DNA from: a virus
DNA: 40,383 nucleotides
Virus record (IMG/VR): IMGVR_UViG_3300022542_001227
Coordinates: 1 to 40,383 of that record
Reading direction: 5' to 3' (one strand)
The position numbers and the translations under genes are program-made. The notes under the pieces were generated by a model. The model did not search any database. It saw only the letters and a program-made list of their open reading frames with translations, and was not told the DNA's origin. Position 1 is the first letter of the stretch, and each line of letters starts with the position of its first letter. Positions 1 to 40,383 of the stretch are shown here, in pieces.

Positions 1-141
1 TACTAGCCATCTAAAATTAAAATTGCTTGCATGAATATAACTATTAAGTATCGGTGTGAACACCAGCAGGTTCAGTTACTTGTACCAAAAACGATTCTAA
101 TGTATGGTAAATTAAAGTGCCTAGTATATCATATGGCTCTA
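1..141. repeat. Terminal direct repeat, copy 1 (circular-assembly overlap)
   Basis: Identical base for base to 40243-40383. Contains the portal start codon (8-10) and the 3' end of ORF 44..403. Confidence 0.95.
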
Positions 142-4868: not shown

Positions 4869-4914
4869 GACAAATTACAGTTCTAATGCATGTATTTTAC
4901 TATTTTGCAGTAAA

Positions 4915-4934
4915 AGGTGCTAATTTAGAACCAT
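4915..4934 (-). promoter_or_regulatory. Near-palindromic 20-mer AATGGTTCTAAATTAGCACC, copy 1
   Basis: Identical to 12454-12473. Intergenic, just after an oligo-T tract. Confidence 0.5.
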
Positions 4935-4964
4935 TAAAAAAAAGAAAAAATATTCTATTTTGAA

Positions 4965-5550: not shown

Positions 5551-5871
5551 TCAATCACTTTTCAATTTATCCAAATCAAATTCCAGGTTAGTGTCCTGGT
5601 GATCAGATTGTACTGCAGTACTTGATTCATCATAATCATCTTCTACTACATTCATTTGTTTTTTTCTAGTTTCAATTTCTGCAATATTTTGCTTTTCTTT
5701 TTTATTTTTAATTTTAGTTAGTATTCTTTTGTAACCATTTGCAGTTGGTTTTTTCTTATCGCACTTCCAGCATCTTGTGGGATTTGTAATATCATTTTCA
5801 GCACCACATTCTTCATATGGACATATCCATTTTGGAAAAAATTCTACATTAGATTTCTGATTTTGCAGCAT
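5551..5871 (-). CDS. RanBP2-like zinc-finger protein (106 aa)
   Basis: WICPYEECGAENDITNPTRCWKC fits W-x-C-x4-C-x3-N-x7-C-x2-C. A K-rich then acidic tail follows. Confidence 0.6.
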   Translation of the reverse strand: MLQNQKSNVEFFPKWICPYEECGAENDITNPTRCWKCDKKKPTANGYKRILTKIKNKKEKQNIAEIETRKKQMNVVEDDYDESSTAVQSDHQDTNLEFDLDKLKSD

Positions 5872-7084: not shown

Positions 7085-7237
7085 CTAAAGTTTCACCCTT
7101 CGTTGTTCTGCAGTATTAGCTGATTTTTGAAATGTACCGTTTCTAAATTCCCATCCTTGGCCCCATTTATCAGTGAAAAAACTACCATTGATTGGATTTA
7201 TTGGTCTTGTTTCTGCTTGCTTTTCTTCATATAACAT
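7085..7237 (-). CDS. Small protein (50 aa), first gene of a motif-driven transcription unit
   Basis: Hand translation MLYEEKQAETRPINPINGSFFTDKWGQGWEF... The ATG abuts the GTAGCATATTGCTAC palindrome. Confidence 0.5.
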   Translation of the reverse strand: MLYEEKQAETRPINPINGSFFTDKWGQGWEFRNGTFQKSANTAEQRRVKL

Positions 7238-7267
7238 GTAGCAATATGCTACAAAGGGGTATTTAAA
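7238..7267 (-). promoter_or_regulatory. Motif promoter 2: TTTAAATA at -30, palindrome GTAGCA-TAT-TGCTAC abutting the ATG
   Basis: Read directly. The palindrome spans 7238-7252. Confidence 0.6.
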
Positions 7268-7286
7268 AATATAGTATTCCAGGTGA

Positions 7287-8704: not shown

Positions 8705-8892
8705 TGTAGATCATCTATTCTTGCTTTCTTGTAACTATAATCTAATGTTTCAGTTAATGTTTTTTCAGTATCAGGTGTTAATAATAATCTCATATCATAA
8801 CCACATTTTTCACAAAAAATAATCAATTCATCTTGTAAATAATGTACATAACTACATCTTTTACAAGTAGTAATGTCGCCTTCATATCTCAT
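8701..8892 (-). CDS. Zinc-ribbon protein (63 aa)
   Basis: CKRC ... CEKC pairs. 4-nt overlap with the upstream gene. Confidence 0.5.
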   Translation of the reverse strand: MRYEGDITTCKRCSYVHYLQDELIIFCEKCGYDMRLLLTPDTEKTLTETLDYSYKKARIDDLQ

Positions 8893-9188
8893 TTCAATTC
8901 ATCCTTCTTTACAATTGCTGCAATAATATGTTTACAAGAAAAAGTGTGGCCATGTTCTGAAAAATAGTTTGATGCTAGGCATTTTGAATCTTTCATGTAG
9001 TCCATACCAAATTTGAAGGAAGGACAACTACATGCATTAAAGATACCATCAGCAGTAATGACACCACAATATTTTATTTTAGTTCCATCAACTACTTTGA
9101 AGTGATTCTTTGTATGAAATATTACATCAACTAGTTTTGATTTCTTGATTCGTCTATTCTTTTCAAAGATTTGTTTACTGGTGTTCAA
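8889..9188 (-). CDS. SWIM-type zinc-finger protein (99 aa)
   Basis: CSCPSFKF ... CKHIIAAI fits the CxC-xn-CxH SWIM signature. Confidence 0.6.
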   Translation of the reverse strand: MNTSKQIFEKNRRIKKSKLVDVIFHTKNHFKVVDGTKIKYCGVITADGIFNACSCPSFKFGMDYMKDSKCLASNYFSEHGHTFSCKHIIAAIVKKDELK

Positions 9189-9394: not shown

Positions 9395-9509
9395 GATAAT
9401 GATACCTACACTTACCAGAAATAGTTGAATCAATTGGTGCAGCTAGTATTTCAACTACTTCCATCAATTTATCAAATGTTTCATCTGATACTTTAATGTC
9501 ATATTCCAT
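9387..9509 (-). CDS. Small protein (40 aa), first gene of a motif-driven unit
   Basis: Hand translation MEYDIKVSDETFDKLMEVVEILAAPIDSTISGKCRYHYHA. The ATG abuts the GTAGCAATATGCTAC palindrome. Confidence 0.45.
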   Translation of the reverse strand: MEYDIKVSDETFDKLMEVVEILAAPIDSTISGKCRYHYHA

Positions 9510-9538
9510 GTAGCATATTGCTACATATCACTATAAAA
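9510..9538 (-). promoter_or_regulatory. Motif promoter 3: TTTTATAG at -29, palindrome GTAGCA-ATA-TGCTAC abutting the ATG
   Basis: Read directly. The palindrome spans 9510-9524. Confidence 0.6.
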
Positions 9539-9548
9539 CAGTGTCGAT

Positions 9549-9747: not shown

Positions 9748-11538
9748 TTAGAGTGTCTTAAACCAACCTGAACTATCATTTTTGAGTAAGTGAGCAACAA
9801 ACATGTACACAAGTGCATGCATTGCATCATCTGGTTCTGTTTCATCATGTTCATACACCATAGTTTCCCTGCCTTTTCGTAGTACCATAACCCCTTCAAC
9901 TGCTTCAAAGTTGTCAATGAGCCAATCATTATCTGTATCAGTAAATCCAGGCAATCCAGTATTATATGGAATAATTAATCTAGGAAATGTATTGTTCCCT
10001 TGCACATGATACCTTGTCATAAGATCACGTAGTTGCTCAATTGCATATGTTCTATCTATCATGTATCTATTATCATATCGCAGTTGATCAATTTCTTCTG
10101 GTTTTGGTAATGGAAATTCTGGCCTGCCCATTGGATAATAATTAATTCTAACAACACGTGGCCCAAATGTATCTTGTAGTTTTTGTACTTGTCTAGTTCC
10201 ACCACCAGCATCTATTCCAACCATATCAACTTCATATGCATTGATTAATGAAATTAGCATGTCTGCTTGTTTCTCAACATCTTTTTCTTTGATTCGTCTT
10301 ACGTACAATGTTTTGAAAATTGGTGCAGTTGGGTGTAGTCTTTGTGCAATCCAGATTATTGTATATGCTTTGTTGCCACCACCAAGATCTATTCCAGCAA
10401 GTATGGGGCCTTTTGTTTTATCAATTAAGTCTGCAGGTGTTAGTGAAGATGATTTATCAAATAGTTTTTCAAGGTCTTCACGTAGAAATGGTTTTGCTGC
10501 ACCTTTGATGAACTTGGCCTTAATGTGACGCATGTATTCATCATATGTTAATTCGTTCTTCAACCACTGTAAAGACCACTTGATAGAAATTTTGTATTTC
10601 TGCATTGCTTCTGTTTCTGTAACTGGAACATTTGGAAATATTTCTTGGCCCATGTGATAACCGTTAATTGGTGAATCATGATTTGCTTGTGATACCCATT
10701 TACCTGCAAGTAGTGGTTTCATGTAATTACCCCACACTAATCTGCTTCTTCCAATTGTAAATTCATCTTCAAGTAGTTCTTTACAATTGTATCCTAGGAA
10801 TTTTAAACCATCACGCCACTTTTCATTGTCATATATCCATTCCATTTGATTTGATTCAAGCCATCCTTTGTGATGTTTAGTGCCAATGTATCCACCGATA
10901 CCTGCAAGAAATGAATTACCTTGTGTCCAGGAAGATGCAAGTATTAGCCTACCATATGCTACCATGTTCAAGTATTGCCATTCATCTAGAAAATTATCAT
11001 CAGTAGATTTTCCTTCAGCGTGTGTAAAGTCATGATTATGTGTAATGAAATCTTGCTTACTACCATTTAGAAAATCCATATGATTCATTGAACCAAGTGT
11101 TGTACCGTTTACAAATTTAGCAAGGAAGTTATCTTTGCCACCAAATACTGATTGTCGATATTTAGCACCAACAAATGTTCGTCTTGATTCATCTTCATAT
11201 GTACAGTACAATTGCCAAGAATTATTTTTAGTAATTGCTTTGTATGCAAGTTTGTTTCCAATTAATGATGTTTTGCCACGTTGTCTTGCAATTACATATC
11301 GCTGTTCATCAGATTCATCTTCATATGGTTGTTTCCACATTGGTAAAAATTCTAAGATATTACGTTTGCCTTCAAAGTATGGCCTATACTTTATTGTAAA
11401 TTCGTAACAGTTAGCTGCATCAATTTGTGGTAAGGTGTCTACTGCTGCTTCCTTTGCTTGATTCAAAGAAGCCATTGAGATCTTCGATTCGTTGTGCTTC
11501 TCTACTGTCTTCCATCTTTTTGTTCTGGTCACTGTCAT
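9748..11538 (-). CDS. terL: Terminase large subunit
   Basis: Walker A-like VIARQRGKTS and Walker B LDEWQ. RNaseH-like nuclease Asp motifs GIDLGGG, GIDAGGG and DDAMHA. 596 aa. An alternative start at M22 is possible. Confidence 0.9.
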   Translation of the reverse strand: MTVTRTKRWKTVEKHNESKISMASLNQAKEAAVDTLPQIDAANCYEFTIKYRPYFEGKRNILEFLPMWKQPYEDESDEQRYVIARQRGKTSLIGNKLAYKAITKNNSWQLYCTYEDESRRTFVGAKYRQSVFGGKDNFLAKFVNGTTLGSMNHMDFLNGSKQDFITHNHDFTHAEGKSTDDNFLDEWQYLNMVAYGRLILASSWTQGNSFLAGIGGYIGTKHHKGWLESNQMEWIYDNEKWRDGLKFLGYNCKELLEDEFTIGRSRLVWGNYMKPLLAGKWVSQANHDSPINGYHMGQEIFPNVPVTETEAMQKYKISIKWSLQWLKNELTYDEYMRHIKAKFIKGAAKPFLREDLEKLFDKSSSLTPADLIDKTKGPILAGIDLGGGNKAYTIIWIAQRLHPTAPIFKTLYVRRIKEKDVEKQADMLISLINAYEVDMVGIDAGGGTRQVQKLQDTFGPRVVRINYYPMGRPEFPLPKPEEIDQLRYDNRYMIDRTYAIEQLRDLMTRYHVQGNNTFPRLIIPYNTGLPGFTDTDNDWLIDNFEAVEGVMVLRKGRETMVYEHDETEPDDAMHALVYMFVAHLLKNDSSGWFKTL

Positions 11539-11911
11539 ATTCTATAATGCCTTGTACTTCATCATAATAACTGGTTAAAATTTCTTGCAGTCTGGCCATG
11601 CTATTGTATACAAACTGTGCATCTCTAAATTTTTCTGCAGCAACACATGCTTCTGCATTTTTAAAACTTAATCCAATCAGTTGATCAATTCTATCAATTG
11701 CTTCAATTTGTTTTTTCAGTACACCTTCTAAGATGAAACGTTTCTTTCTTTTCTCAACATTTGCATCAATTTGGCCAAGTGTGTAACGATATTGATTAGA
11801 AGTTAATGTGTAACCATGTTCTTTTTTAATCCAATCCCTTGCTTTTGTTTCTGGCATGTTGAAGATCGAAGTAGTTAGTACTGCAGATTCACGTGGATTA
11901 AATATTGACAT
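11420..11911 (-). CDS. Candidate terminase small subunit (163 aa)
   Basis: Helical protein immediately upstream of, and overlapping, terL. The call rests on position only. Confidence 0.4.
   Translation of the reverse strand: MSIFNPRESAVLTTSIFNMPETKARDWIKKEHGYTLTSNQYRYTLGQIDANVEKRKKRFILEGVLKKQIEAIDRIDQLIGLSFKNAEACVAAEKFRDAQFVYNSMARLQEILTSYYDEVQGIIEYDSDQNKKMEDSREAQRIEDLNGFFESSKGSSSRHLTTN
11604..11613. repeat. TTGTATACAA palindrome, copy 1 (inside the terS candidate)
   Basis: Read directly. Confidence 0.7.
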
Positions 11912-12084
11912 TTACTCACTAATCACCAATACAATTAATGAATTTCATGAATTTAAGGGCTTTGTATACAATCACGCCTGATCGAATAAAAAATTTGCAT
12001 TTCGTGGGCGGTAAGATAGTATGTTAGATTGTATGTACGAGAATTAGTATGATGTATGTAAAATAAAATAAGATAGTAAGTAAG
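11912..12084. other. 173-bp non-coding repeat-rich region upstream of the terS candidate
   Basis: TAAGATAGTA twice (12012-12021 and 12070-12079), GTATGTA twice, the TTGTATACAA palindrome, and two GC-rich patches (cacgcctgatcg, cgtgggcgg). Confidence 0.5.
11962..11971. repeat. TTGTATACAA palindrome, copy 2 (51 nt upstream of the terS candidate start)
   Basis: Read directly. Confidence 0.7.
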
Positions 12085-12285: not shown

Positions 12286-12453
12286 ATCTAATTATTCTAA
12301 TATCTCTATTTAACTGTGATTGCAAATGGTTGTGAAGCCATATTGCAGTGATTTGGCTGAACAAGCGTTTGCAATTGCAGTGTACCTTGCGTAATGTAAC
12401 ACTACTAAAACTATTGATTTTGGAAGGGGTGTGGGGAAACCTTTTAGATCAAT
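12286..12453 (-). other. 168-nt non-coding, comparatively GC-rich structured region (long 5' UTR or small RNA candidate)
   Basis: No ORF longer than 11 codons on the gene strand. TGCAATTGCA palindrome (12371-12380), ATTGCAGTG twice (12342-12350 and 12373-12381), and an imperfect hairpin tgcaaatgg/ccatattgca. Confidence 0.35.
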
Positions 12454-12473
12454 GGTGCTAATTTAGAACCATT
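12454..12473 (-). promoter_or_regulatory. Near-palindromic 20-mer, copy 2
   Basis: AATGGT/ACCATT arms. Overlaps the stop codon of 12472..12588. Confidence 0.5.
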
Positions 12474-12588
12474 AAAGCATCTCAGGCTTAGATTCTTCAT
12501 GGCATTCAGTACAGGTAATTTGATTAACTTTCTTGATATTCTTGTTGCAGGCCCTACAAATTATTTCTTCATCAAAGTATTCAATCAT
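12472..12588 (-). CDS. Zinc-ribbon micro-protein (38 aa)
   Basis: Hand translation MIEYFDEEIICRACNKNIKKVNQITCTECHEESKPEML. ATGA overlap with 12585..12794. Confidence 0.4.
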   Translation of the reverse strand: MIEYFDEEIICRACNKNIKKVNQITCTECHEESKPEML

Positions 12589-12794
12589 TCAAAATCAATT
12601 GGTAATGTATCTTGGCCACCTAATTTTGCAATTAATGGTGCTATCTTTTCCATCAATGTGGTTAGTTGTTCATTACTACCTTTTGCAGATAATGATAGTT
12701 TGAATTCAGTACCACGTGGTACAATTCCAACATCTTTTTCTTTCTTTTGTCCATTAGATTTTGTGATTTTATAATTCCATTCTATTTGATCCAT
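12585..12794 (-). CDS. Hypothetical protein (69 aa), first gene of a motif-driven unit
   Basis: Track ORF. The ATG abuts ATGCTAC. Confidence 0.55.
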   Translation of the reverse strand: MDQIEWNYKITKSNGQKKEKDVGIVPRGTEFKLSLSAKGSNEQLTTLMEKIAPLIAKLGGQDTLPIDFE

Positions 12795-12822
12795 GTAGCA
12801 TTACAAATTTAGTATCATAAAA
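12795..12822 (-). promoter_or_regulatory. Motif promoter 4: TTTTATGA at -28, single ATGCTAC abutting the ATG
   Basis: Read directly. Confidence 0.5.
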
Positions 12823-12903
12823 AGATTAGGATGATTCACATGGCCAGATCGTTCATCTTATTCAGTTATACTGCTATTGATTAAAAAAATTACTATACAT
12901 TGA

Positions 12904-14731: not shown

Positions 14732-14950
14732 TTATCTATGGAATAGATCAACGTACTCATAGGGTATTTTGATTGTTTTGGGTATCTTTGTAATTTTTTG
14801 TGCAAACTTTATCAATTTTTCATGTTGCATTTCTTGATTTTTTACAAGTTCTTGTAGAATTAACCAATGTTTTCTTTTGATATGATTTACAATATGTGTT
14901 GTTAGTTCATATGATTTTGGGCAGTATGGACACTTTAATGAATTCACCAT
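14732..14950 (-). CDS. C2H2 zinc-finger protein (72 aa)
   Basis: LKCPYCPKSYELTTHIVNHIKRKH is a classical C-x2-C-x12-H-x4-H finger. The track TTG start is replaced by the ATG at 14950. Confidence 0.55.
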   Translation of the reverse strand: MVNSLKCPYCPKSYELTTHIVNHIKRKHWLILQELVKNQEMQHEKLIKFAQKITKIPKTIKIPYEYVDLFHR

Positions 14951-14968
14951 CAATATCACCAAAAAAAA

Positions 14969-15555: not shown

Positions 15556-15704
15556 AGTTTAACCACCTTTCTAAGTTCTGCATTAAGTACTGCTGAAAAA
15601 GAAACACTATGTGTGCTAACAGTAATTAGTTTTGCTTGTTTTTTACGCAATGCTGTTTGTATATCACCATCTAACATGATGGTAATTCTACTTGCTTTAT
15701 TCAT
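15552..15704 (-). CDS. Ribbon-helix-helix (CopG/Arc-like) DNA-binding protein (50 aa)
   Basis: Hand translation MNKASRITIMLDGDIQTALRKKQAKLITVSTHSVSFSAVLNAELRKVVKL. It shows the beta strand, helix, loop, helix pattern. The ATG abuts the best palindrome. ATGA overlap with the next gene. Confidence 0.6.
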   Translation of the reverse strand: MNKASRITIMLDGDIQTALRKKQAKLITVSTHSVSFSAVLNAELRKVVKL

Positions 15705-15734
15705 GTAGCAAATTGCTACATGGTTCTTAATATA
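15705..15734 (-). promoter_or_regulatory. Motif promoter 5: TATATTAA at -30, 9-bp-arm palindrome CATGTAGCA-ATT-TGCTACATG
   Basis: Read directly. Core palindrome at 15705-15719. Drives the RHH gene. Confidence 0.6.
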
Positions 15735-15748
15735 TTGATCGTAATACT

Positions 15749-17900: not shown

Positions 17901-18163
17901 TCTAGATCATCTGTTTCAACTACTGCAAGCATTATACCTTCATAGAATAGATGGTTGCAATGATCTGTATTTAGTTTAATTTGTGCAGCAAGATAATGGG
18001 TATCACATGCATTTACCAATACATCAATATTTTCTGGATAAATATAATCACGTTCAATTACCTTGACACATTTACAACCACATTCCATATGCATGGCCCA
18101 TAAAATAGAACCATTTGGTGATACACAATAAGATGGTAGTGATAAAATTATTTTATTTTCCAA
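17897..18163 (-). CDS. Hypothetical Cys/His-rich protein (88 aa)
   Basis: Track ORF. Confidence 0.5.
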   Translation of the reverse strand: MENKIILSLPSYCVSPNGSILWAMHMECGCKCVKVIERDYIYPENIDVLVNACDTHYLAAQIKLNTDHCNHLFYEGIMLAVVETDDLE

Positions 18164-18569
18164 TTTTCTTTACTCCTGGTACTGCTTTGAAGAAATCAAT
18201 GGTTCCTACAATTGAAATAATAGGCATTTTCATTACATCAACAATTTGGGGATTTTCTAATGAATTGGTAACTGTGTTGAATTCACTGATTTTTGCATAT
18301 GTTCTTTTTTTGTTTGATGATATTTCAATCATGAATGATTTAGATCTTGCAAATGCTTCTGCAGCCATCAATACACATTTTGGACAAAAATTAGCACCTG
18401 GTTTTAATTCACTAAGTAATTCTGGTTCTACTGTTCCACCGCAATTTGTACAGTTATTTGATGGTTCAATTTCAATTCCAATATCAATTTTATTTGCTGT
18501 GTCAAATTGTTTTAATCTTGATTGTAATTGTTTTTCTTTCAAAATTTCTAGTTCTTTATCTTGTTCCAT
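18153..18569 (-). CDS. Zinc-ribbon protein (138 aa), first gene of a motif-driven unit
   Basis: CTNCGG ... CPKC. Track ORF trimmed to the second ATG (18569), which abuts the proximal ATGCTAC copy. Confidence 0.55.
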   Translation of the reverse strand: MEQDKELEILKEKQLQSRLKQFDTANKIDIGIEIEPSNNCTNCGGTVEPELLSELKPGANFCPKCVLMAAEAFARSKSFMIEISSNKKRTYAKISEFNTVTNSLENPQIVDVMKMPIISIVGTIDFFKAVPGVKKIGK

Positions 18570-18599
18570 GTAGCATGGTGTCATGTAGCATGTAATAAA
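18570..18599 (-). promoter_or_regulatory. Motif promoter 6: TTTATTAC at -30, tandem ATGCTACATG-N5-ATGCTACATG
   Basis: Copies at 18567-18576 and 18582-18591. Confidence 0.55.
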
Positions 18600-18639
18600 G
18601 ATATTGTCAATAAAATTACATAAAATAGTAGATTCCGTT

Positions 18640-18653
18640 CATTGTATACAATG
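18640..18653. repeat. CATTGTATACAATG palindrome, copy 3
   Basis: Perfect 14-bp palindrome in the intergenic composite element. Confidence 0.75.
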
Positions 18654-18668
18654 TGCAGGACAACATTG

Positions 18669-18682
18669 GGCCCAATTGGGCC
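18669..18682. repeat. GGCCCAATTGGGCC perfect palindrome
   Basis: GC-rich 14-mer in an AT-rich genome. It occupies the slot held by the 20-mer palindrome in the paralogous element at 35408-35427. Confidence 0.7.
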
Positions 18683-18685
18683 ATT

Positions 18686-18704
18686 TCCAGGTCAGTTACC
18701 TGGT
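18686..18704. repeat. 19-bp CCAGGT-N5-ACCTGG hairpin repeat, copy 1
   Basis: tccaggtcagttacctggt is the exact reverse complement of 19825-19843. Confidence 0.85.
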
Positions 18705-18947
18705 TACTGGACTGGAAACAAAGGGGTGCACATATGCAATTACAACATCTGTTTCAATTGCTTCATCTATAATGTGATCCATACAATAATGTCTGTTAGG
18801 TTTGTTTACAATTTCATTTTTACAATGCCTGTTGCTACATTTTTTGTATAATTTTACTTTATGATTCCTCAAAGTATGAGCAAGAAACGCAGCAGAATCT
18901 AATTTGTTAAGGGGATTACCAAATAGATCTTTCTGATTCTTGCACAT
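18696..18947 (-). CDS. Cys/His-rich protein (83 aa)
   Basis: HCKNEIVNKPNRHYCMDH. The track TTG start is replaced by the ATG at 18947. The last codons overlap the 19-bp CCAGGT hairpin repeat. Confidence 0.45.
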   Translation of the reverse strand: MCKNQKDLFGNPLNKLDSAAFLAHTLRNHKVKLYKKCSNRHCKNEIVNKPNRHYCMDHIIDEAIETDVVIAYVHPFVSSPVTR

Positions 18948-19020
18948 GCTTTGATTCAACAATACTTTACAAAGTCTGAATATCAGTCTAATTGATCAAA
19001 AAGATTAAGCTGATGGTTGA

Positions 19021-20256
19021 TTATTTGACTTGATTGCCATATCCTCTAAAACCTTTTGTTGGCTCTCTTTGATACATTTCAATTGCATCTGGTCTATTGG
19101 GATACATTTCTAGTAACATTTTAGCAAATATTTTTGGCTTGGCAGAATGTTCACCAACTGGTGCATCAATAACAGATTCAAATCTTTTTACTGGTACAAC
19201 TTTCTTACCTTTGAAACAAAGTAACAATGTTTCATGGTATCCAAGTGTGTAAGAACCAGTATTTGGTTTATCTTTATGCCATATGATTTCTGCACCAACT
19301 TCAAGACCATGTGCTTCTAAGATATGTTCCATTGTAGATCTAGTTTTTGAAATTGGTTTCATAATTTTTCTATGCTGTGTTACGTGATTTACTACACCTG
19401 CTTCAACTATTGTTTCACGTTCACCAGTAATTCTTTTAATTCTATCATACTTCATACTGTTTGGTATCCACATTGCAACAACTGCTTCATCTGCAATTGG
19501 TAATTTAATATCACAAATTTCATCAAGTGTCATTAATGGATAATGTTTCAATGCCCCACCACGTACAGTTGCATCTTTGAATTTGTAGGGCCAATCAACA
19601 TATAGCAATGTAGTTTTGCCTTCTGGTGCTGGTAACTTTGGTAAATTTCGTTCTTTGATTGTAACTAGTGTATGTACTGTATTGATTGATTTTTTCTTTT
19701 TATCCAAATCATCTAAAAACTTTTCAAATTCAGGGTTTGCATCAACACTATCAATGATTTTTTTAATCTTTGAAATTTGTGCTGGTGAATCACCAGTAAT
19801 TTGTGATACTATTTTGATTGTTTTACCAGGTAACTGACCTGGATTGTCTTTTGTTGGTCTACCAAGTATTTGCTTCTTTTCAATCAAATCAATAATGGTT
19901 CCAATTTCCCTTGTAGTGTAACCTTTACGTGCACCAGTTCCAATAAAACCTGCAGCAACTAGATCATCAACATCTAACATTACAAAAGGAATTACAGTTG
20001 CATCAAGTGATTCAAATGCTTGTATTCTTCGTTCACCTTTTACAAGTTTCATTTTTGGTGTAATTAGTATTGGCTGTTCTATTCCTACTTCTAGCATTGT
20101 ATTAGCTAGTGCTTCAATATCACCATAGTTGGTTCTGATTCTGCCAGATCTATCAATGTCTGCAATTGAAATTAATTCTGCATTAGTTGGTACTTTGATT
20201 TGAATTGCTTTTGTTTCAAAATAACCACCAACAAATTTTTGTGGTTTGTGAATCAT
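19021..20256 (-). CDS. ParB-like N-terminal domain fused to an MT-A70-type N6-adenine DNA methyltransferase (411 aa)
   Basis: ParB/Srx box GIEQPILITPKMKLVKGERRIQAF. MT-A70-like LLYVDWPY (a DPPW variant), YPLMTLDEI, MWIPN, IIWHKDK and HSAKPK. Confidence 0.8.
   Translation of the reverse strand: MIHKPQKFVGGYFETKAIQIKVPTNAELISIADIDRSGRIRTNYGDIEALANTMLEVGIEQPILITPKMKLVKGERRIQAFESLDATVIPFVMLDVDDLVAAGFIGTGARKGYTTREIGTIIDLIEKKQILGRPTKDNPGQLPGKTIKIVSQITGDSPAQISKIKKIIDSVDANPEFEKFLDDLDKKKKSINTVHTLVTIKERNLPKLPAPEGKTTLLYVDWPYKFKDATVRGGALKHYPLMTLDEICDIKLPIADEAVVAMWIPNSMKYDRIKRITGERETIVEAGVVNHVTQHRKIMKPISKTRSTMEHILEAHGLEVGAEIIWHKDKPNTGSYTLGYHETLLLCFKGKKVVPVKRFESVIDAPVGEHSAKPKIFAKMLLEMYPNRPDAIEMYQREPTKGFRGYGNQVK
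19825..19843. repeat. 19-bp hairpin repeat, copy 2 (inside the ParB-MT-A70 gene, at the domain junction)
   Basis: accaggtaactgacctgga encodes NPGQLPG. Confidence 0.85.
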
Positions 20257-20538: not shown

Positions 20539-20727
20539 TCAATCTTCTCTCTCCCATAGTTCAGCATGTTTACCCATAGGGATTCTAGTTCTAGGTGGTA
20601 ATTTTCCATCTCTTAATTGTCTTAATTTGGATTGTGTAATATCAAAGAATTGTGACATACCTTTCATATCCATTCCTTGTTCTAATGAGTCTACCAATTC
20701 AGTTTTAGTAAGATAGTTTTGAGTCAA
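20539..20727 (-). CDS. Possible helix-turn-helix protein (62 aa)
   Basis: MSQFFDITQSKLRQLRDGK is an HTH-like segment. TTG start in a TTGA overlap. Confidence 0.4.
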   Translation of the reverse strand: MTQNYLTKTELVDSLEQGMDMKGMSQFFDITQSKLRQLRDGKLPPRTRIPMGKHAELWERED

Positions 20728-20918
20728 TGCATAAAAAACTCCTGTACGATAGTTGCAGTTTCAATTAATCCACAACCTGACTCACATTTTGGACAAAACA
20801 GTTGTACTAATTCAGGTAATTCTTTGTAACGTCTATCAAACTCTAAAATCTCTAACTGTGTAGAACATTCAGCACATGTTCTTTCAGTTGTTAATGTTTC
20901 TGATTTATCTAAACTCAA
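20724..20918 (-). CDS. Zinc-ribbon protein (about 64 aa)
   Basis: CAEC ... CPKC. The track ORF 20724..21008 has a hydrophobic N-terminus that looks like an out-of-frame read of 20938..21075. A TTG at 20918 lies 9 nt after AGGAG. Confidence 0.4.
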   Translation of the reverse strand: MSLDKSETLTTERTCAECSTQLEILEFDRRYKELPELVQLFCPKCESGCGLIETATIVQEFFMH

Positions 20919-20937
20919 GAACAATCTCTCCTGAGTG

Positions 20938-21075
20938 TCATTTAATTCCCTCAATGTGTTTTTTGATACATTCAAAACAAAATAAATCACTACAAAAACC
21001 ACATTCAAAATGGTGATTTCTTGCCTCCATGTGCCAACATTGGTCGGTTGAATTACACTTTAATTCTTTAATCAA
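20938..21075 (-). CDS. Cys/His-rich micro-protein (45 aa)
   Basis: Hand translation (M)IKELKCNSTDQCWHMEARNHHFECGFCSDLFCFECIKKHIEGIK. TTG start in a TTGA overlap. Confidence 0.4.
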   Translation of the reverse strand: MIKELKCNSTDQCWHMEARNHHFECGFCSDLFCFECIKKHIEGIK

Positions 21076-24559: not shown

Positions 24560-24718
24560 TTATTTCAGCCTCTTTTTGTCTTTAGAAATTGCAGAATTTA
24601 TTGCATTAATCATGTATGAAGGTAATGAACCTAGGGTATATTTTTCTAGAAAAGTATTCCATTTCTTAACATCTGTTTTTAATGCTCTAATATTTGTCCA
24701 CTTGCTTGTTTTAACCAT
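24560..24718 (-). CDS. Small basic protein (52 aa), first gene of a motif-driven unit
   Basis: Hand translation MVKTSKWTNIRALKTDVKKWNTFLEKYTLGSLPSYMINAINSAISKDKKRLK. The ATG abuts the GTAGCAAAATGCTAC palindrome. Confidence 0.45.
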   Translation of the reverse strand: MVKTSKWTNIRALKTDVKKWNTFLEKYTLGSLPSYMINAINSAISKDKKRLK

Positions 24719-24748
24719 GTAGCATTTTGCTACAAGACATTATATAAA
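24719..24748 (-). promoter_or_regulatory. Motif promoter 7: TTTATATA at -30, palindrome GTAGCA-AAA-TGCTAC abutting the ATG
   Basis: Palindrome at 24719-24733. Confidence 0.6.
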
Positions 24749-24752
24749 GATT

Positions 24753-25565: not shown

Positions 25566-25570
25566 GTTAA

Positions 25571-25600
25571 ATTAAAATAAAAAAAGAAGATAAAGGTTTC
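25571..25600 (-). repeat. 30-bp conserved intergenic element, copy A (terminator and/or promoter)
   Basis: Gene-sense GAAACCTTTATCTTCTTTTTTTATTTTAAT, identical to 35989-36018. Lies between a stop codon and the next ATG. Confidence 0.8.
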
Positions 25601-26133
25601 TAGTTGTTCCAGGCTTGATCGTTCATTACACGTTTCTTTTCAGCAATTGCTTCTGCCATTTGTTTTTGTGCATCTACAATATCTTTACTAACTGCATCAA
25701 TTTCTTCTGAAAAATTATCCTTTAGTGTTGGATATTGTTCTTTCATTGAATTGAATTTTGCAAGTAGTTTTTCACTTCTAACAATATCATCAGCATAAAA
25801 TTGTATCATTTGATTCAATTGTTTGGCCATGTTAGTGCGTGCCCAATTGCCATTTGGACTTCTTAACCCACTTGATACTACTGCAGCAATCTTTTGTCCT
25901 TGGGTAATACCCAGCATCAAAATACCTGCACCTGCAATACTAAACACAACACCTTGGAATAATCCAAGATCAATTGTTCCAGTTACAACAATGTTATCTT
26001 TGCCATTCCAAACACCAATGATTACTGTTGCAGCATATGTTGCAACAATTAGTACAAGTACTACACCAACAACTATCATTGCCATTTCATTCTTGCTTAG
26101 ATTTCCTAATTGGTTAGGATTGTCTTTACTCAT
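25600..26133 (-). CDS. Two-TM membrane protein with C-terminal coiled coil (177 aa), holin-like candidate
   Basis: Hydrophobic helices MAMIVVGVVLVLIVATYAATVIIGVW and LGLFQGVVFSIAGAGILMLGI. Motif-type promoter upstream. Confidence 0.6.
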   Translation of the reverse strand: MSKDNPNQLGNLSKNEMAMIVVGVVLVLIVATYAATVIIGVWNGKDNIVVTGTIDLGLFQGVVFSIAGAGILMLGITQGQKIAAVVSSGLRSPNGNWARTNMAKQLNQMIQFYADDIVRSEKLLAKFNSMKEQYPTLKDNFSEEIDAVSKDIVDAQKQMAEAIAEKKRVMNDQAWNN

Positions 26134-26446: not shown

Positions 26447-26505
26447 AGGATGATGAAAGTATGCATGTATTTAAGAAATGATTTATGCCTAGGTTATTGT
26501 GTAAT

Positions 26506-26535
26506 ATTTATTACATGCTACATGAAATATGCTAC
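26506..26535 (+). promoter_or_regulatory. Motif promoter 9 (plus strand): ATTTATTA at -30, tandem ATGCTACATG-N4-ATGCTACATG
   Basis: Copies at 26515-26524 and 26529-26538. Confidence 0.55.
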
Positions 26536-26769
26536 ATGAATCAAAACAAAAAAGCATTGATAATTACATTATCAGTATTAGCTACTGTGATTGTAATTTC
26601 TACTGGGTTCAGTTATGCAACACATATTGATGAATCTGATCCAGATTGGCAATGTAAAAAATGGATAGGTATAACAGAACTTGCAAAACAAGGTTATCCA
26701 CATTTTCTTGAAGATAGTTTAACTATGGGCAAGATGAAATGTGGTTTTGACATTAGTGAATTTATTTAA
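26536..26769 (+). CDS. Small secreted or membrane-anchored protein (77 aa); the only plus-strand gene
   Basis: Track ORF 26485..26769 trimmed to the ATG at 26536, which abuts the second ATGCTAC copy. MNQNKKALIITLSVLATVIVISTGFSYA is a signal or anchor-like segment. Two Cys residues. Confidence 0.55.
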   Translation: MNQNKKALIITLSVLATVIVISTGFSYATHIDESDPDWQCKKWIGITELAKQGYPHFLEDSLTMGKMKCGFDISEFI

Positions 26770-35169: not shown

Positions 35170-35373
35170 TTATCTATACATGACATTGAAATATTTTTTG
35201 AATGTGGAATTGTTCAAGCCATCAATATATGTATCCAGATAGCATTTTTTGCATTCATTACACCACCATCCAATAGGAACAAACCCACGTTTTCCAGCAT
35301 TAGATCTTACATACAATCTTGACATCAAAATTCTATATTGATGTTTCATACAATGAATTACCCTGTATCCCAT
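35170..35373 (-). CDS. Cys/His-rich small protein (67 aa)
   Basis: HCMKH ... WWCNECKKC. An ATG 9 nt downstream of the CATTGTATACAATG palindrome. Confidence 0.5.
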   Translation of the reverse strand: MGYRVIHCMKHQYRILMSRLYVRSNAGKRGFVPIGWWCNECKKCYLDTYIDGLNNSTFKKYFNVMYR

Positions 35374-35380
35374 ACCTGCA

Positions 35381-35393
35381 CATTGTATACAAT
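35381..35393. repeat. CATTGTATACAAT palindrome, copy 4
   Basis: Read directly. Lies just upstream of the ATG at 35373. Confidence 0.75.
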
Positions 35394-35407
35394 AAGCAGG
35401 TTAAAAA

Positions 35408-35427
35408 GATTCTAAATTAGAACCATT
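35408..35427 (-). promoter_or_regulatory. Near-palindromic 20-mer, copy 3 (3 mismatches)
   Basis: Gene-sense AATGGTTCTAATTTAGAATC, inside the composite element 35381-35460. Confidence 0.45.
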
Positions 35428-35439
35428 TCCAGGGGTGTT

Positions 35440-35458
35440 ACCAGGTAACTGGCCTGGA
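35440..35458. repeat. 19-bp hairpin repeat, copy 3 (1 mismatch)
   Basis: accaggtaactggcctgga. 23 nt including the flanks match 19823-19845 with 1 mismatch. Confidence 0.8.
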
Positions 35459-35983
35459 TTAACTCACTGTATTATTAATAATATTAGTACTTGATTTTAC
35501 TTCAATTGCTGCAAGTACTTTATTTGTGCCAACAAATTTTATATATTTTCCATCAGTTGTTAAAATTTTTGTTGCTCTACGAAAATCAGAAGTGAAATCA
35601 AGAATATCACCTGATACTGCACCAAAATGTTCTGTAATGTATCCTTCAAGTGATTCTTCTGCAGGTTCCATTCTATCAATGTTTTCACTAAAGTCATGTT
35701 CAAGCATTGCAATAACAAGATCATCTGCAATTGCACGAATATGATCATCAATTGGTGCTTGGTAAGTTTTAGAATAATCATCAATTAATTCAGTTGTTCC
35801 ACTTAGTGGTAAAATAATTCTAAATCCATTTACATCAAAGTTTCCCATTCTGGCCCTAAGAGCAGAATTTATCTTACTATCAGTATTTCTTTGTGCTACT
35901 TCAACATCTTCTACTTTGTATCTTGAACCAGTTCTAGATTGTATTTTATCCCTTTTAGAATAAACTGCAACATAGTCTGCCAT
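35459..35983 (-). CDS. Head completion / connector candidate (174 aa)
   Basis: First gene after the capsid gene. Preceded by the 30-bp conserved intergenic element. Confidence 0.45.
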   Translation of the reverse strand: MADYVAVYSKRDKIQSRTGSRYKVEDVEVAQRNTDSKINSALRARMGNFDVNGFRIILPLSGTTELIDDYSKTYQAPIDDHIRAIADDLVIAMLEHDFSENIDRMEPAEESLEGYITEHFGAVSGDILDFTSDFRRATKILTTDGKYIKFVGTNKVLAAIEVKSSTNIINNTVS

Positions 35984-35988
35984 GTATT

Positions 35989-36018
35989 ATTAAAATAAAA
36001 AAAGAAGATAAAGGTTTC
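35989..36018 (-). repeat. 30-bp conserved intergenic element, copy B
   Basis: Identical to 25571-25600. Lies between the capsid gene stop and the ATG at 35983. Confidence 0.8.
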
Positions 36019-36020
36019 TT

Positions 36021-40252: not shown

Positions 40253-40383
40253 CTAAAATTAAAATTGCTTGCATGAATATAACTATTAAGTATCGGTGTG
40301 AACACCAGCAGGTTCAGTTACTTGTACCAAAAACGATTCTAATGTATGGTAAATTAAAGTGCCTAGTATATCATATGGCTCTA
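40243..40383. repeat. Terminal direct repeat, copy 2 (circular-assembly overlap)
   Basis: Identical to 1-141. 40286-40383 duplicates the 3' part of ORF 44..403. Confidence 0.95.

What the first reader, a model, noticed from the sequence alone, without database searches (positions are those of the whole stretch)
18585..18715. Composite intergenic element with three palindromes, paralogous to 35374-35460
Two intergenic stretches share the same ordered blocks on the same strand. Gene-sense, these are: CCAGG..CCTGG hairpin, CCTGGAAATGG, a central palindrome, CCTGC, then (C)ATTGTATACAAT(G).

The central slot holds the GC-rich GGCCCAATTGGGCC (18669-18682) in one copy. In the other it holds TTCTAATTTAGAA (35408-35427). 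The outer modules are therefore conserved while the middle operator has been swapped.

Both elements lie just upstream of a promoter or start: the 18569 unit and the 35373 gene. Each also has AGGGGTG nearby. This resembles a modular landing pad for several DNA-binding proteins, or a structured RNA. I know of no standard feature class that describes it.
Basis: seen in the sequence. Interest (0 to 1): 0.65.

Follow-up and report, generated by a model that had tools for sequence, protein, structure and literature searches.

The report
Repeated promoter-region cassette in uncultured virus
Two intergenic stretches of this 40-kb uncultured virus genome are real copies of one regulatory cassette, assembled from short DNA palindromes that the virus also uses separately at other promoters; they most likely are docking sites for regulatory proteins, not a folded RNA.

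Summary
Copy el1 (18640-18716) and copy el2 (35375-35458) share the same ordered blocks on the gene (minus) strand, far beyond chance.

Related metagenomic genomes carry el1 in three contigs and el2 in two. Across these, two parts stay fixed:
- H1: three CCWGG pentamers 12 nt apart, forming a 29-bp palindrome.
- The core: an 18-nt box, CCTGCACATTGTATACAA, 100% identical among el1 orthologues while third codon positions of flanking genes are 67-72% identical.

The middle is unconstrained (about 45% identity). No compensatory base-pair change supports an RNA fold, and two modules occur flipped.

Each module also occurs alone elsewhere in the family. CCAGG-N7-CCTGG lies next to or inside other promoters, and the core lies upstream of the terminase genes.

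Genes lack Shine-Dalgarno sequences. A CTTTAWAT box sits about 30 nt before many start codons, which suggests archaeal-type TATA promoters with leaderless mRNAs. In el2 the 'terminator' T-run is in register as such a TATA box, and the core palindrome fills the TATA-to-start slot of a small accessory zinc-finger gene.

The cassette and this gene are absent from the closest relative. Best reading: a modular, recombination-prone operator/promoter cassette, similar in concept to the PeSL cassettes of T4-type phages. The function is inferred, not shown.

The parts
18687..18715 (-). el1 module H1: three pentamers 12 nt apart (CCAGT-N7-CCAGG-N7-CCTGG in gene sense). It is a 29-bp quasi-palindrome and overlaps the stop codon (18696-18698) of the upstream 88-aa gene.
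   Evidence: The CCWGG columns are invariant in 7 copies.
18660..18686 (-). el1 variable centre, containing the 14-bp palindrome GGCCCAATTGGGCC (18669-18682). It has no TATA-like box.
   Evidence: Centre identity among el1 orthologues is 0.45.
18640..18659 (-). el1 core: the 18-nt box CCTGCACATTGTATACAA (18642-18659), including the 14-bp palindrome CATTGTATACAATG (18640-18653).
   Evidence: It is 100% identical in 4 orthologues, against 0.67-0.72 at third codon positions of flanking genes.
18567..18600 (-). Promoter of the gene downstream of el1. It has a TATA-like CTTTATTA box (18593-18600) and two direct TGCTACA half-sites (starting at 18590 and 18575, read on the minus strand). The likely start codon and transcription start is at 18569.
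35429..35457 (-). el2 module H1: CCAGG-N7-CCTGG-N7-CCTGG. It begins one base after the stop codon (35459-35461) of the 174-aa gene.
35408..35424 (-). el2 central hairpin GGTTCTAATTTAGAATC. It belongs to a repeated terminator-like hairpin family also found at 4913-4938 and 12451-12476. Its 3' arm lies where a BRE would be.
   Evidence: (family D11).
35401..35408 (-). el2 T-run CTTTTTAA. It is in register with the CTTTAWAT boxes of the other promoters, about 31 nt upstream of the predicted start site at 35377, so it is a putative TATA box (and possibly an oligo-T terminator).
   Evidence: Counting the printed sequences puts the box start 30-31 nt before the A of GCAGG in L007 and L008; no tool output gives this number.
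35375..35400 (-). el2 core: the 26-bp palindrome CCTGCTTATTGTATACAATGTGCAGG. It fills the slot between the TATA box and the predicted start site, and ends 1 nt before the ATG (35373) of the small gene.
35170..35373 (-). Accessory 67-aa Cys/His-rich (zinc-finger-like) gene tied to el2. Homologues of 81-97 aa occur in the element-bearing relatives. It is absent from NODE_785 and from distant relatives.
11962..11993 (-). Third, degenerate core (GGCGTGATTGTATACAAA), preceded by TTTTTTAT, upstream of the putative small-terminase gene. The same spot in L010 has the intact box; in NODE_785 it has ATATGCTACATAG instead.
5583..5599 (-). Solitary CCAGG-N7-CCTGG at the 3' end of the 106-aa gene. The stems are conserved in L006, L007 and L008.
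19826..19842 (-). Solitary CCAGGTCAGTTACCTGG inside the linker of the ParB-methyltransferase gene. It is identical to the plus-strand 17-mer of el1 (an inverted pair 1.1 kb apart) and is present only in the window lineage.

Best explanation
The two stretches are copies of a lineage-specific cis-regulatory DNA cassette. It is a string of protein-binding palindromes, not an RNA.

Anatomy:
- H1 is three CCWGG pentamers in 12-bp register, forming a 29-bp palindrome.
- The core is the 18-nt box CCTGCACATTGTATACAA, extended to a 26-bp palindrome in el2.
- The spacer between them is free to vary.

el2 as a promoter: the cassette is a complete small promoter. Its hairpin and T-run sit where the virus's other promoters have their BRE/TATA box. 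The core palindrome occupies the 22 nt between that box and the predicted start site (A at 35377, 4 nt before the ATG of a small zinc-finger gene). A dimeric regulator bound there would block or tune initiation, and H1 upstream would bind a second factor.

Other copies: the core overlaps the predicted start region of the terminase operon at the third site. At el1 the same pair of sites sits 45-130 nt upstream of a different class of promoter, and could act as an upstream control region or a roadblock between operons.

Evolution: the cassette is accessory and is gained, lost, flipped and copied by recombination at the repeats.

Shown: paralogy, conservation pattern, absence of covariation, independent recurrence of modules, presence/absence polymorphism, and fixed spacing of TATA-like boxes to start codons.

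Inferred: archaeal-type transcription, the start sites, protein binding, and which protein binds.
For: 1. Orthologues exist. el1 is in L009, L010 and L011; el2 is in L007 and L008.
2. Constraint is on primary sequence. Core identity is 1.00 among el1 orthologues and 0.96 between paralogues; H1 is 0.80. The centre is 0.45, downstream is 0.39, and third codon positions of flanking genes are 0.64-0.72.
3. There is no RNA-type covariation: 0 of 21 pairs change on both sides, and the score is no better than shuffles.
4. Orientation does not matter. H1 of L011 is nearly the reverse complement of H1 of L007 (26 of 29 bases), and the perfect 18-mer of window el2 lies on the opposite strand.
5. The core is kept where its pairing partner is absent (el1 group, third site).
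6. Modules recur alone.
   - A triple CCWGG lies just upstream of a TATA-like box at L010 7797.
   - CCAGG-N7-CCTGG lies between the TATA-like box and the ATG at L008 6433 and L010 15751.
   - The core alone lies upstream of the terminase genes at L010 17349.
7. Promoter architecture. A TATA-like box starts at -32..-29 from the ATG in 12 of 28 genes with an upstream gap, against 1.1% of control ATGs, and there is no Shine-Dalgarno sequence. The el2 T-run aligns in the same register.
8. A different palindrome (TGTAGCA-N3-TGCTACA) fills the same slot in at least 6 other promoters. At the third site, NODE_785 carries a half-site of that motif exactly where the window has the core.
9. Phyletic pattern. 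All four genomes with the small gene carry the core (the window, NODE_420, ZHAN22 and the L010 genome). NODE_785 lacks the gene, el1, el2 and any core in the 23.7 kb read.
Against: - There is no experimental or transcript data, so start sites and protein binding are predictions.
- The host is unknown. The archaeal reading rests on promoter spacing, the lack of Shine-Dalgarno sequences, one 23%-identity capsid match to a Nitrososphaera provirus and many small zinc-finger-like ORFs. The large terminase instead matches Bacillus phages weakly.
- No DNA-binding fold could be assigned to the small protein: no Pfam hit and a low-confidence model (pLDDT 57).
- el1 has no TATA-like box next to its core, so its role is the weakest part.
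- Only 7 copies from 5 other contigs (plus the window) were available.
- Part of the gene/core co-occurrence is trivial, because the el2 core is physically next to the gene.
- The hairpins do fold better than shuffled sequence (z -2.5 to -3.1), although both strands do so equally.
Confidence: 0.5

Rival explanations
1. Structured RNA in the intergenic transcript. Three hairpins would act as processing or stability signals for the upstream mRNA, or as a translational operator that hides the start region of the small gene.
For: - Both copies are predicted to form three hairpins, with z-scores of -2.45 and -3.08.
- The element starts right after a stop codon and, in el2, ends 1-4 nt before a start codon.
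- The central slot holds different sequences that both fold (el1 and el2 of the window).
Against: - No pair changes on both sides in 7 copies, and covariation is no better than shuffles.
- The plus strand folds as well as the minus strand.
- L011 has A-C and C-A mismatches on the sense strand where L007 has G-U, so no single strand is favoured.
- CCTGC is invariant in el1 copies that lack the GCAGG partner.
- The centres of L009 and L011 contain no clear hairpin by my reading of the sequence; they were not folded.
- There is no Rfam match at the gathering threshold or at E < 0.05.
Confidence: 0.15
2. A bacterial-type operon junction: an intrinsic terminator (hairpin plus U-run) followed by a sigma-70 promoter with TACAAT as its -10 element. 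This would be a true PeSL equivalent in a bacteriophage.
For: - The el2 centre is a hairpin followed by TTTTT, and the same hairpin family lies after other genes (family D11).
- The core contains TACAAT.
- PeSLs are exactly such composite motifs (PMC2839356, PMC4122927).
Against: - The consensus scans call no promoter or terminator inside either element.
- No conserved -35 element lies 16-18 nt upstream of TACAAT, because that region is the variable centre.
- Genes lack Shine-Dalgarno sequences, and the AT-rich box sits at a fixed -30 from the ATG rather than at -10.
- The terminator-like stem has only 2 G-C pairs.
- The position of the core relative to the T-run differs by 9 nt between el2 and the third site.
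Confidence: 0.12
3. A functionless repeat: either a recent local duplication or a selfish or miniature mobile element whose copies are merely drifting.
For: - There is presence/absence polymorphism: NODE_785 lacks both copies and distant relatives lack el2.
- A 125-nt extra segment with a 9-bp direct repeat abuts H1 in L009 and L011.
- The motif has been copied into a coding linker.
Against: - Both copies are retained at the same two loci in genomes whose flanking genes are only 60-78% identical in protein.
- The 18-nt box is unchanged while neighbouring intergenic bases are 39-45% identical.
- Paralogues are as similar as orthologues, which indicates constraint to a consensus rather than recency.
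- No terminal inverted repeats or target duplications bound the cassette itself.
Confidence: 0.1
4. A site for DNA transactions other than transcription. Examples are a core site for a tyrosine recombinase (10-bp arms around GTATAC), a parS-like site for the ParB-domain methyltransferase encoded next to el1, or a packaging or replication signal.
For: - The 26-bp palindrome in el2 has the arm-spacer-arm shape of recombinase core sites (from my own knowledge; not tested).
- A ParB_N/MT-A70 fusion gene lies 400 nt upstream of el1 and itself contains a CCAGG-N7-CCTGG copy.
Against: - No integrase or recombinase was detected in the proteins scanned.
- NODE_785 keeps the ParB-methyltransferase (61% identity) but has no H1 or core.
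- The sites sit in promoter slots at fixed distances from TATA-like boxes and start codons.
Confidence: 0.06

Closest known systems
PeSL (promoter-early stem-loop) cassettes of T4-type phages (Arbiol et al. 2010, PMC2839356; Comeau et al. 2014, PMC4122927)
   Same: - Both are short composite intergenic motifs that join a stem-loop or terminator part to a promoter part.
- Both are repeated at several intergenic positions.
- Both are associated with small accessory ORFs.
- Both coincide with insertion, deletion and replacement differences between close relatives.
   Different: - PeSLs carry a strong sigma-70 promoter and proven terminators; here no sigma-70 promoter is detectable.
- The AT-rich box lies about 30 nt before the start codon, which is an archaeal-type layout.
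- The most conserved parts are palindromes that look like operators.
- Only 2-3 copies occur per genome.
- No mini-circles or recombination products have been shown.
Archaeal operators placed between TATA box and transcription start (the general mode of archaeal repression; from my own knowledge)
   Same: The el2 core palindrome, the TGTAGCA-N3-TGCTACA palindromes and some CCAGG-N7-CCTGG copies all fill the roughly 22 nt between a TATA-like box and the predicted start site.
   Different: - The host domain is not established.
- No regulator has been identified.
- el1 has no TATA-like box next to its core.
Morons of tailed phages (autonomous promoter-gene-terminator units inserted between genes; from my own knowledge)
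   Same: el2 plus the 67-aa gene forms a self-contained unit inserted between the head and tail genes. It is absent from the closest relative and from distant relatives.
   Different: The cis part has a gene-less paralogue (el1) that is itself under strong constraint, which a simple moron does not explain.
Stoperators and start-associated sequences of mycobacteriophages (from my own knowledge)
   Same: Both are short conserved motifs repeated in small intergenic gaps near stop and start codons, and are thought or shown to bind a phage regulator.
   Different: - The sequences and hosts are unrelated.
- Those motifs are single short sites present in a dozen or more copies, not a three-part cassette.

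Membership tests
PeSL cassettes | Sigma-70-type early promoter (-35 and -10 elements at 16-18 nt) inside the motif | tested here: not met
   The consensus scans find no such site within 18640-18716 or 35375-35458. The region 16-18 nt upstream of TACAAT is not conserved.
PeSL cassettes | Stem-loop acting as a transcription terminator next to the promoter | tested here: inconclusive
   Hairpins are predicted and el2 has a hairpin plus T5. However, the terminator scan does not call it, and terminator activity cannot be tested here.
PeSL cassettes | Copies coincide with indels or replacements of small accessory genes between close relatives | tested here: met
   NODE_785 lacks el1, el2 and the small gene. 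L009 and L011 have an extra 125-nt segment at the H1 border. Distant relatives lack el2 and the gene.
Bacterial intrinsic terminator | G+C-rich stem followed directly by a U-run | tested here: not met
   No terminator-like site was called in either region. The el2 stem has 2 G-C pairs, and the el1 palindrome is followed by CAAUGUUGU.
Archaeal-type promoter (BRE/TATA about 26 nt upstream of the start; leaderless mRNA) | AT-rich box at a fixed distance from the start, and no Shine-Dalgarno sequence | tested here: met
   This holds for the genome and for el2. Boxes start at -32..-29 in 12 of 28 genes against 1.1% of control ATGs, and el2 is in the same register. It does not hold for el1, which has no such box next to its core.
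Archaeal-type promoter | Transcription actually starts there, using host TBP/TFB/RNA polymerase | not testable with these tools
   No transcript data are available and the host is unknown.
Structured RNA family (Rfam or novel) | Match to a curated model, or base pairs supported by compensatory change | tested here: not met
   No match at the gathering threshold and only chance-level matches at E <= 1. 0 of 21 pairs show change on both sides.
Operator of a dimeric DNA-binding regulator | Dyad symmetry; sequence (not pairing) conservation; orientation independence; position overlapping promoter elements | tested here: met
Operator of a dimeric DNA-binding regulator | A cognate protein binds it | not testable with these tools
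   The candidate 67-aa protein has no family match, and its model is of low confidence.
MITE or other miniature mobile element | Terminal inverted repeats and target-site duplication bounding the unit; many dispersed copies | tested here: not met
   There are 2-3 copies per genome at conserved loci. No duplications flank el1 or el2. No copies were found in IMG/VR, JGI metagenomes or GTDB genomes beyond chance matches.

The most novel reading that the evidence does not exclude
The window is a complete genome of an uncultured tailed virus of an archaeon, possibly an ammonia-oxidising Nitrososphaeria host. It would be transcribed from leaderless TATA-box promoters sorted into classes by at least three different palindromes placed between TATA box and start site: TGTAGCA-N3-TGCTACA, CCAGG-N7-CCTGG, and CCTGCACATTGTATACAATGTGCAGG. 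The composite element would be a mobile regulatory cassette that carries its own small zinc-finger regulator (the 67-aa gene). That regulator would shut off its own promoter and act on the el1 and terminase-operon sites.
Probability: 0.25. Interest if true: 0.65.

Novelty: new variant of a known kind. Interest (0 to 1): 0.42.

Why it matters
If this reading is right, the element gives a sequence-level handle on gene regulation in a virus lineage known only from metagenomes.

- It offers testable operator sequences, predicted transcription start sites (35377, 18569) and a candidate regulator.
- The promoter layout is a cultivation-independent clue that the host is an archaeon with leaderless mRNAs.
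- It would extend to a very different virus the idea, established for T4-type phages, that small composite regulatory cassettes are the joints at which virus genomes gain and lose accessory genes.

It is not a new class of biology. Repeated operator/promoter/terminator cassettes are known.

Tried and rejected
RNA and tRNA searches
- tRNA/tmRNA scan and Rfam at the gathering threshold found nothing.
- Rfam at E <= 1 on both loci gave only chance-level SraG and mir-460 matches.

DNA-pattern and nucleotide searches
- Exact-pattern scans of IMG/VR with the whole cassette and with each half gave 0 hits or only chance matches inside unrelated coding sequences.
- The one JGI-metagenome scan and the one GTDB-genome scan with CCTGG-N20-45-CCTGCNNATTGTATACAA gave only unrelated, mostly high-GC coding matches.
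- blastn of 4 kb around el1 against GenBank phages gave no match.

Protein-based searches for related loci
- Searches in IMG/VR with the 174-aa protein and with the small-protein alignment found no relatives.
- The P0025 contig (L024) and the P0006 contig (L025) did not help with host or el2; L025 ends 220 nt after the capsid gene.

Protein annotation
- Pfam and PHROGs on about 50 ORFs found no RNA polymerase, integrase, wHTH or RHH protein. The only matches above or close to the curated cut-offs were ParB_N/MT-A70, Dam, HNH, large terminase, M10 peptidase and a depolymerase-like domain.
- The AlphaFold model of the small protein was too poor (pLDDT 57) to justify a fold search.

Interpretations considered and dropped
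- Sigma-54, ECF-sigma and Bacteroidetes -7/-33 promoter readings of the blocks were checked by eye and dropped, because the spacings do not fit.
- The partial third copy at 5577-5612 reported by the repeat finder is a solitary CCAGG-N7-CCTGG inside a coding 3' end, not a cassette.
- The 141-bp terminal repeat is most simply an assembly overlap of a circular or terminally redundant genome, not part of the element.
Full report
**1. The genome**

The window is a 33% G+C sequence whose first 141 bases repeat at the end (family D1). It is therefore a complete circularly assembled or terminally redundant genome of about 40.2 kb. All credible genes lie on the minus strand.

Recognisable genes:
- a large terminase (9748-11538);
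- an 810-aa protein with a capsid-like C-terminus (36021-38453);
- a ParB_N/MT-A70 methyltransferase fusion (19021-20256);
- a Dam-like methylase, an HNH endonuclease and an M10 peptidase.

Nothing similar exists at nucleotide level among GenBank phages. The only GenBank-phage protein match of the capsid protein is the protease/capsid gene of the Nitrososphaera provirus Pro-Nvie1, at 23% identity. The terminase matches Bacillus phages at 21-23% identity.

**2. The observation**

Read in gene sense, both loci carry the same order of blocks:
1. CCAGG-N7-CCWGG-N7-CCTGG (module H1);
2. AAATGG;
3. a central palindrome;
4. CCTGC-NN-ATTGTATACAAT (the core).

The exact 12-mer and the exact 11-mer each occur only at these two places. 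The 18-mer CCTGCACATTGTATACAA, with up to three mismatches, occurs three times against 0.06 expected.

Four corrections apply:
- In el1 the first pentamer is CCAGT, and the upstream 88-aa ORF stops inside H1.
- In el2 the element starts one base after a stop codon and ends one base before the ATG of a 67-aa gene.
- The 'AGGGGTG' is coding sequence in el1 and unconserved spacer in el2.
- A degenerate third core lies at 11962-11972.

**3. Relatives**

Exact DNA patterns found nothing real in IMG/VR, JGI metagenomes or GTDB genomes.

Protein searches with the capsid protein and the ParB-methyltransferase did find relatives, at 33-94% and 30-81% identity. Their contigs were read.

| Feature | Present | Absent |
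|---|---|---|
| el2 plus an 81-88-aa homologue of the small gene | L007 (ZHAN22 scaffold), L008 (NODE_420) | NODE_785 (L006) |
| el1 | L009 (NODE_420), L010, L011 | NODE_785 (L012) |

NODE_785 is the closest relative by capsid protein (94%), yet it lacks the cassette at both loci:
- At the el2 locus it has only a terminator-like hairpin followed by the promoter of the next gene, and no small gene.
- At the el1 locus the upstream gene runs straight into the next promoter.

Three relatives at 46-52% capsid identity have a gap of about 30 nt at the el2 locus. The cassette is therefore accessory and confined to a subclade.

**4. What is conserved**

In the seven-copy alignment the invariant columns are the three CCWGG pentamers, most of the GGTAAC that follows the middle pentamer, and CCTGC..ATTGTATACAA.

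| Segment | Identity among el1 orthologues | Identity between paralogues |
|---|---|---|
| Core (18 nt) | 1.00 | 0.96 |
| H1 | 0.80 | 0.80 |
| Centre | 0.45 | 0.41 |
| Downstream | 0.39 | 0.26 |

For comparison, third codon positions of the flanking genes are 0.64-0.72 identical.

Because paralogues are as alike as orthologues, the sequence is being held to a consensus. This is not a recent duplication.

**5. RNA or DNA?**

Both strands of both copies fold into three hairpins with z-scores of about -2.5 to -3. Any set of palindromes would do that. On the alignment, none of the 21 proposed pairs shows a change on both sides, and covariation does not exceed shuffles.

Further points against an RNA fold:
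- Where the inner H1 stem varies, L007 has G-U pairs on the sense strand, but L011 has A-C and C-A there. The L011 H1 is nearly the reverse complement of the L007 H1 (26 of 29 bases).
- In window el2 the perfect 18-mer is on the antisense strand.
- CCTGC is invariant in the el1 group, although its partner GCAGG is absent.
- The centres of L009 and L011 contain no clear hairpin by my reading. They were not folded.

These points favour recognition of double-stranded DNA by proteins.

**6. The modules are independent**

Scanning all family loci shows each module on its own:
- A full triple-CCWGG sits alone just upstream of a TATA-like box at L010 7797-7825.
- Single CCAGG-N7-CCTGG copies occur at L008 6433, L010 15751, L009 3385 and L011 5946.
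- In the window, single copies occur at 5583-5599 (conserved in three relatives) and 19826-19842.
- The 18-nt core stands alone upstream of the putative small-terminase gene in L010 (17349-17366). It is degenerate at the same spot in the window and in L011.
- In NODE_785 that spot holds ATATGCTACATAG instead, a half-site of another motif family.
- The central hairpin of el2 belongs to a repeated hairpin family also found at 4913-4938 and 12451-12476 (family D11). It is the only part left at the el2 locus of NODE_785.

**7. Promoter architecture**

Upstream regions show no Shine-Dalgarno sequences. They do show a recurrent (A/T)ATC-TTTAWAT box. A strict pattern for that box starts at -32..-29 from the ATG in 12 of 28 genes that follow a gap. 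The same is true for only 1.1% of other ATGs.

A fixed distance of about 30 nt from the start of an 8-nt AT-rich box to the start codon is what an archaeal TATA box gives for a leaderless mRNA. The TATA box is centred near -26/-27; this is established knowledge of archaeal promoters. Leaderless transcripts, with 0-5 nt before the start codon, dominate in several archaea (PMC4983044).

At least six of these promoters carry the palindrome TGTAGCA-N3-TGCTACA between the box and the ATG. These are conserved across the relatives. At L008 6433 and L010 15751 the same slot holds CCAGG-N7-CCTGG, in front of a called gene and a plausible 56-aa membrane ORF respectively.

Aligned on the A of GCAGG, the el2 sequence AGAATC-TTTTTAAC falls in exactly the register of the other BRE/TATA boxes. 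Counting the L007 and L008 sequences printed gives the same spacing, 30-31 nt from box start to that A. That count is mine; no tool output gives it. So the el2 core palindrome fills the TATA-to-start slot of the small gene's promoter.

At the third site the core lies 9 nt further from the T-run and would overlap the predicted start. el1 has no such box. Its core lies about 45-75 nt upstream of a TGCTACA-class promoter (18567-18600).

**8. Mechanism proposed**

The cassette is a set of operator-like sites.
- In el2 and at the terminase site, a dimeric factor bound to the core would control initiation.
- H1, found upstream of or inside other promoters, would bind another factor.
- At el1 the pair could act as an upstream control region, or as a roadblock to read-through between operons.

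A candidate for the core-binding factor is the small Cys/His-rich protein encoded immediately downstream of el2. All four genomes known to have this gene carry the core: the window, NODE_420, ZHAN22 and the L010 genome. For L010, homologue P0029 lies on a 40,204-nt contig, the same length as the longest contig listed for P0021, the ParB-methyltransferase of the L010 genome; I infer from this that both genes are in one genome. NODE_785 lacks the gene and has no core in the 23.7 kb examined.

This link is only correlative. The protein has no family match and gave a poor structural model.

**9. Plasticity**

The repeats coincide with rearrangement points:
- the presence/absence differences above;
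- a 125-nt extra segment bounded by the 9-bp direct repeat GCGATCCAT at the H1 border in L009 and L011;
- flipped modules;
- a 17-nt copy of the el1 hairpin written into the linker of the ParB-methyltransferase gene, only in the window lineage, where it changes KDAAVPSLTGKT to KDNP-GQLPGKT.

This behaviour parallels the PeSL composite terminator/promoter cassettes of T4-type phages (PMC2839356, PMC4122927). The sigma-70 promoter that defines a PeSL is not present here.

**10. Verdict**

The most likely nature is a modular DNA-level regulatory cassette, with a confidence of about 0.5. The alternatives are a structured RNA, a bacterial terminator-plus-promoter junction, a selfish repeat, or a recombination or partition site.

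It is a new variant of a known kind rather than a new class. It is of moderate interest, raised somewhat by the indication that this is an archaeal virus with a readable promoter code.

Noticed in passing
window 24690-24750, 18567-18600, 15680-15735, 12770-12830, 9490-9540, 7215-7270; conserved in L009-L012: A promoter class has a CTTTATAT-like box about 31 nt before the ATG, and the palindrome TGTAGCA-N3-TGCTACA runs into the start codon (TGCTAC-ATG). Some sites carry direct instead of inverted half-sites (18567-18595; 26505-26540). It is probably the operator of another regulator, or a virus-specific promoter element.
   Followed up: partly
whole window, upstream of about 28 genes: There are no Shine-Dalgarno sequences. 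An AT-rich box sits at a fixed -32..-29 from the start codon in 12 of 28 genes, against 1.1% of control ATGs. This suggests archaeal TATA promoters, leaderless mRNAs and an archaeal host. The capsid protein's only GenBank-phage match is a Nitrososphaera provirus.
   Followed up: partly
window 19826-19842 and 18687-18703: The identical 17-mer CCAGGTCAGTTACCTGG occurs in inverted orientation 1.1 kb apart. One copy is inside the ParB-methyltransferase linker, where it replaces the peptide found in all four homologues.
   Followed up: partly
L009 7673-7792 and L011 10254-10374: An extra segment of about 125 nt lies between the 88-aa gene and H1, bounded by the 9-bp direct repeat GCGATCCAT. It is not found elsewhere in the fetched loci. 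It may be a small insertion or the remnant of an antisense ORF.
   Followed up: partly
window 35984-36019 and 25566-25601: Two nearly identical 40-nt upstream regions (AGAAACCTTTATCTTCTTTTTTTATTTTAAT...) precede the 174-aa gene and the M10-peptidase gene. They probably represent one strong promoter used twice.
   Followed up: no
window 4913-4938, 12451-12476, 35405-35430: A repeated terminator-like hairpin family (AATGG-TTCTAAATTAGCACC-TTTT) carries a conserved internal mismatch. It is also present in NODE_785 at the el2 locus.
   Followed up: partly
window 1-141 and 40243-40383: An exact 141-bp terminal direct repeat. It is most simply the k-mer overlap of a circular assembly, so the window is a complete genome.
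   Followed up: no
window 11603-11613 (plus strand) and L010 17702-17712: A further exact ATTGTATACAA lies inside the putative small-terminase coding sequence, on the antisense strand. It is conserved between the two genomes.
   Followed up: no
window 14732-14962, 18153-18584, 18696-18962, 20724-21008, 8889-9188, 35170-35373: Small Cys-rich ORFs with weak zinc-finger or zinc-ribbon matches are unusually frequent. They are candidate nucleic-acid-binding proteins.
   Followed up: partly
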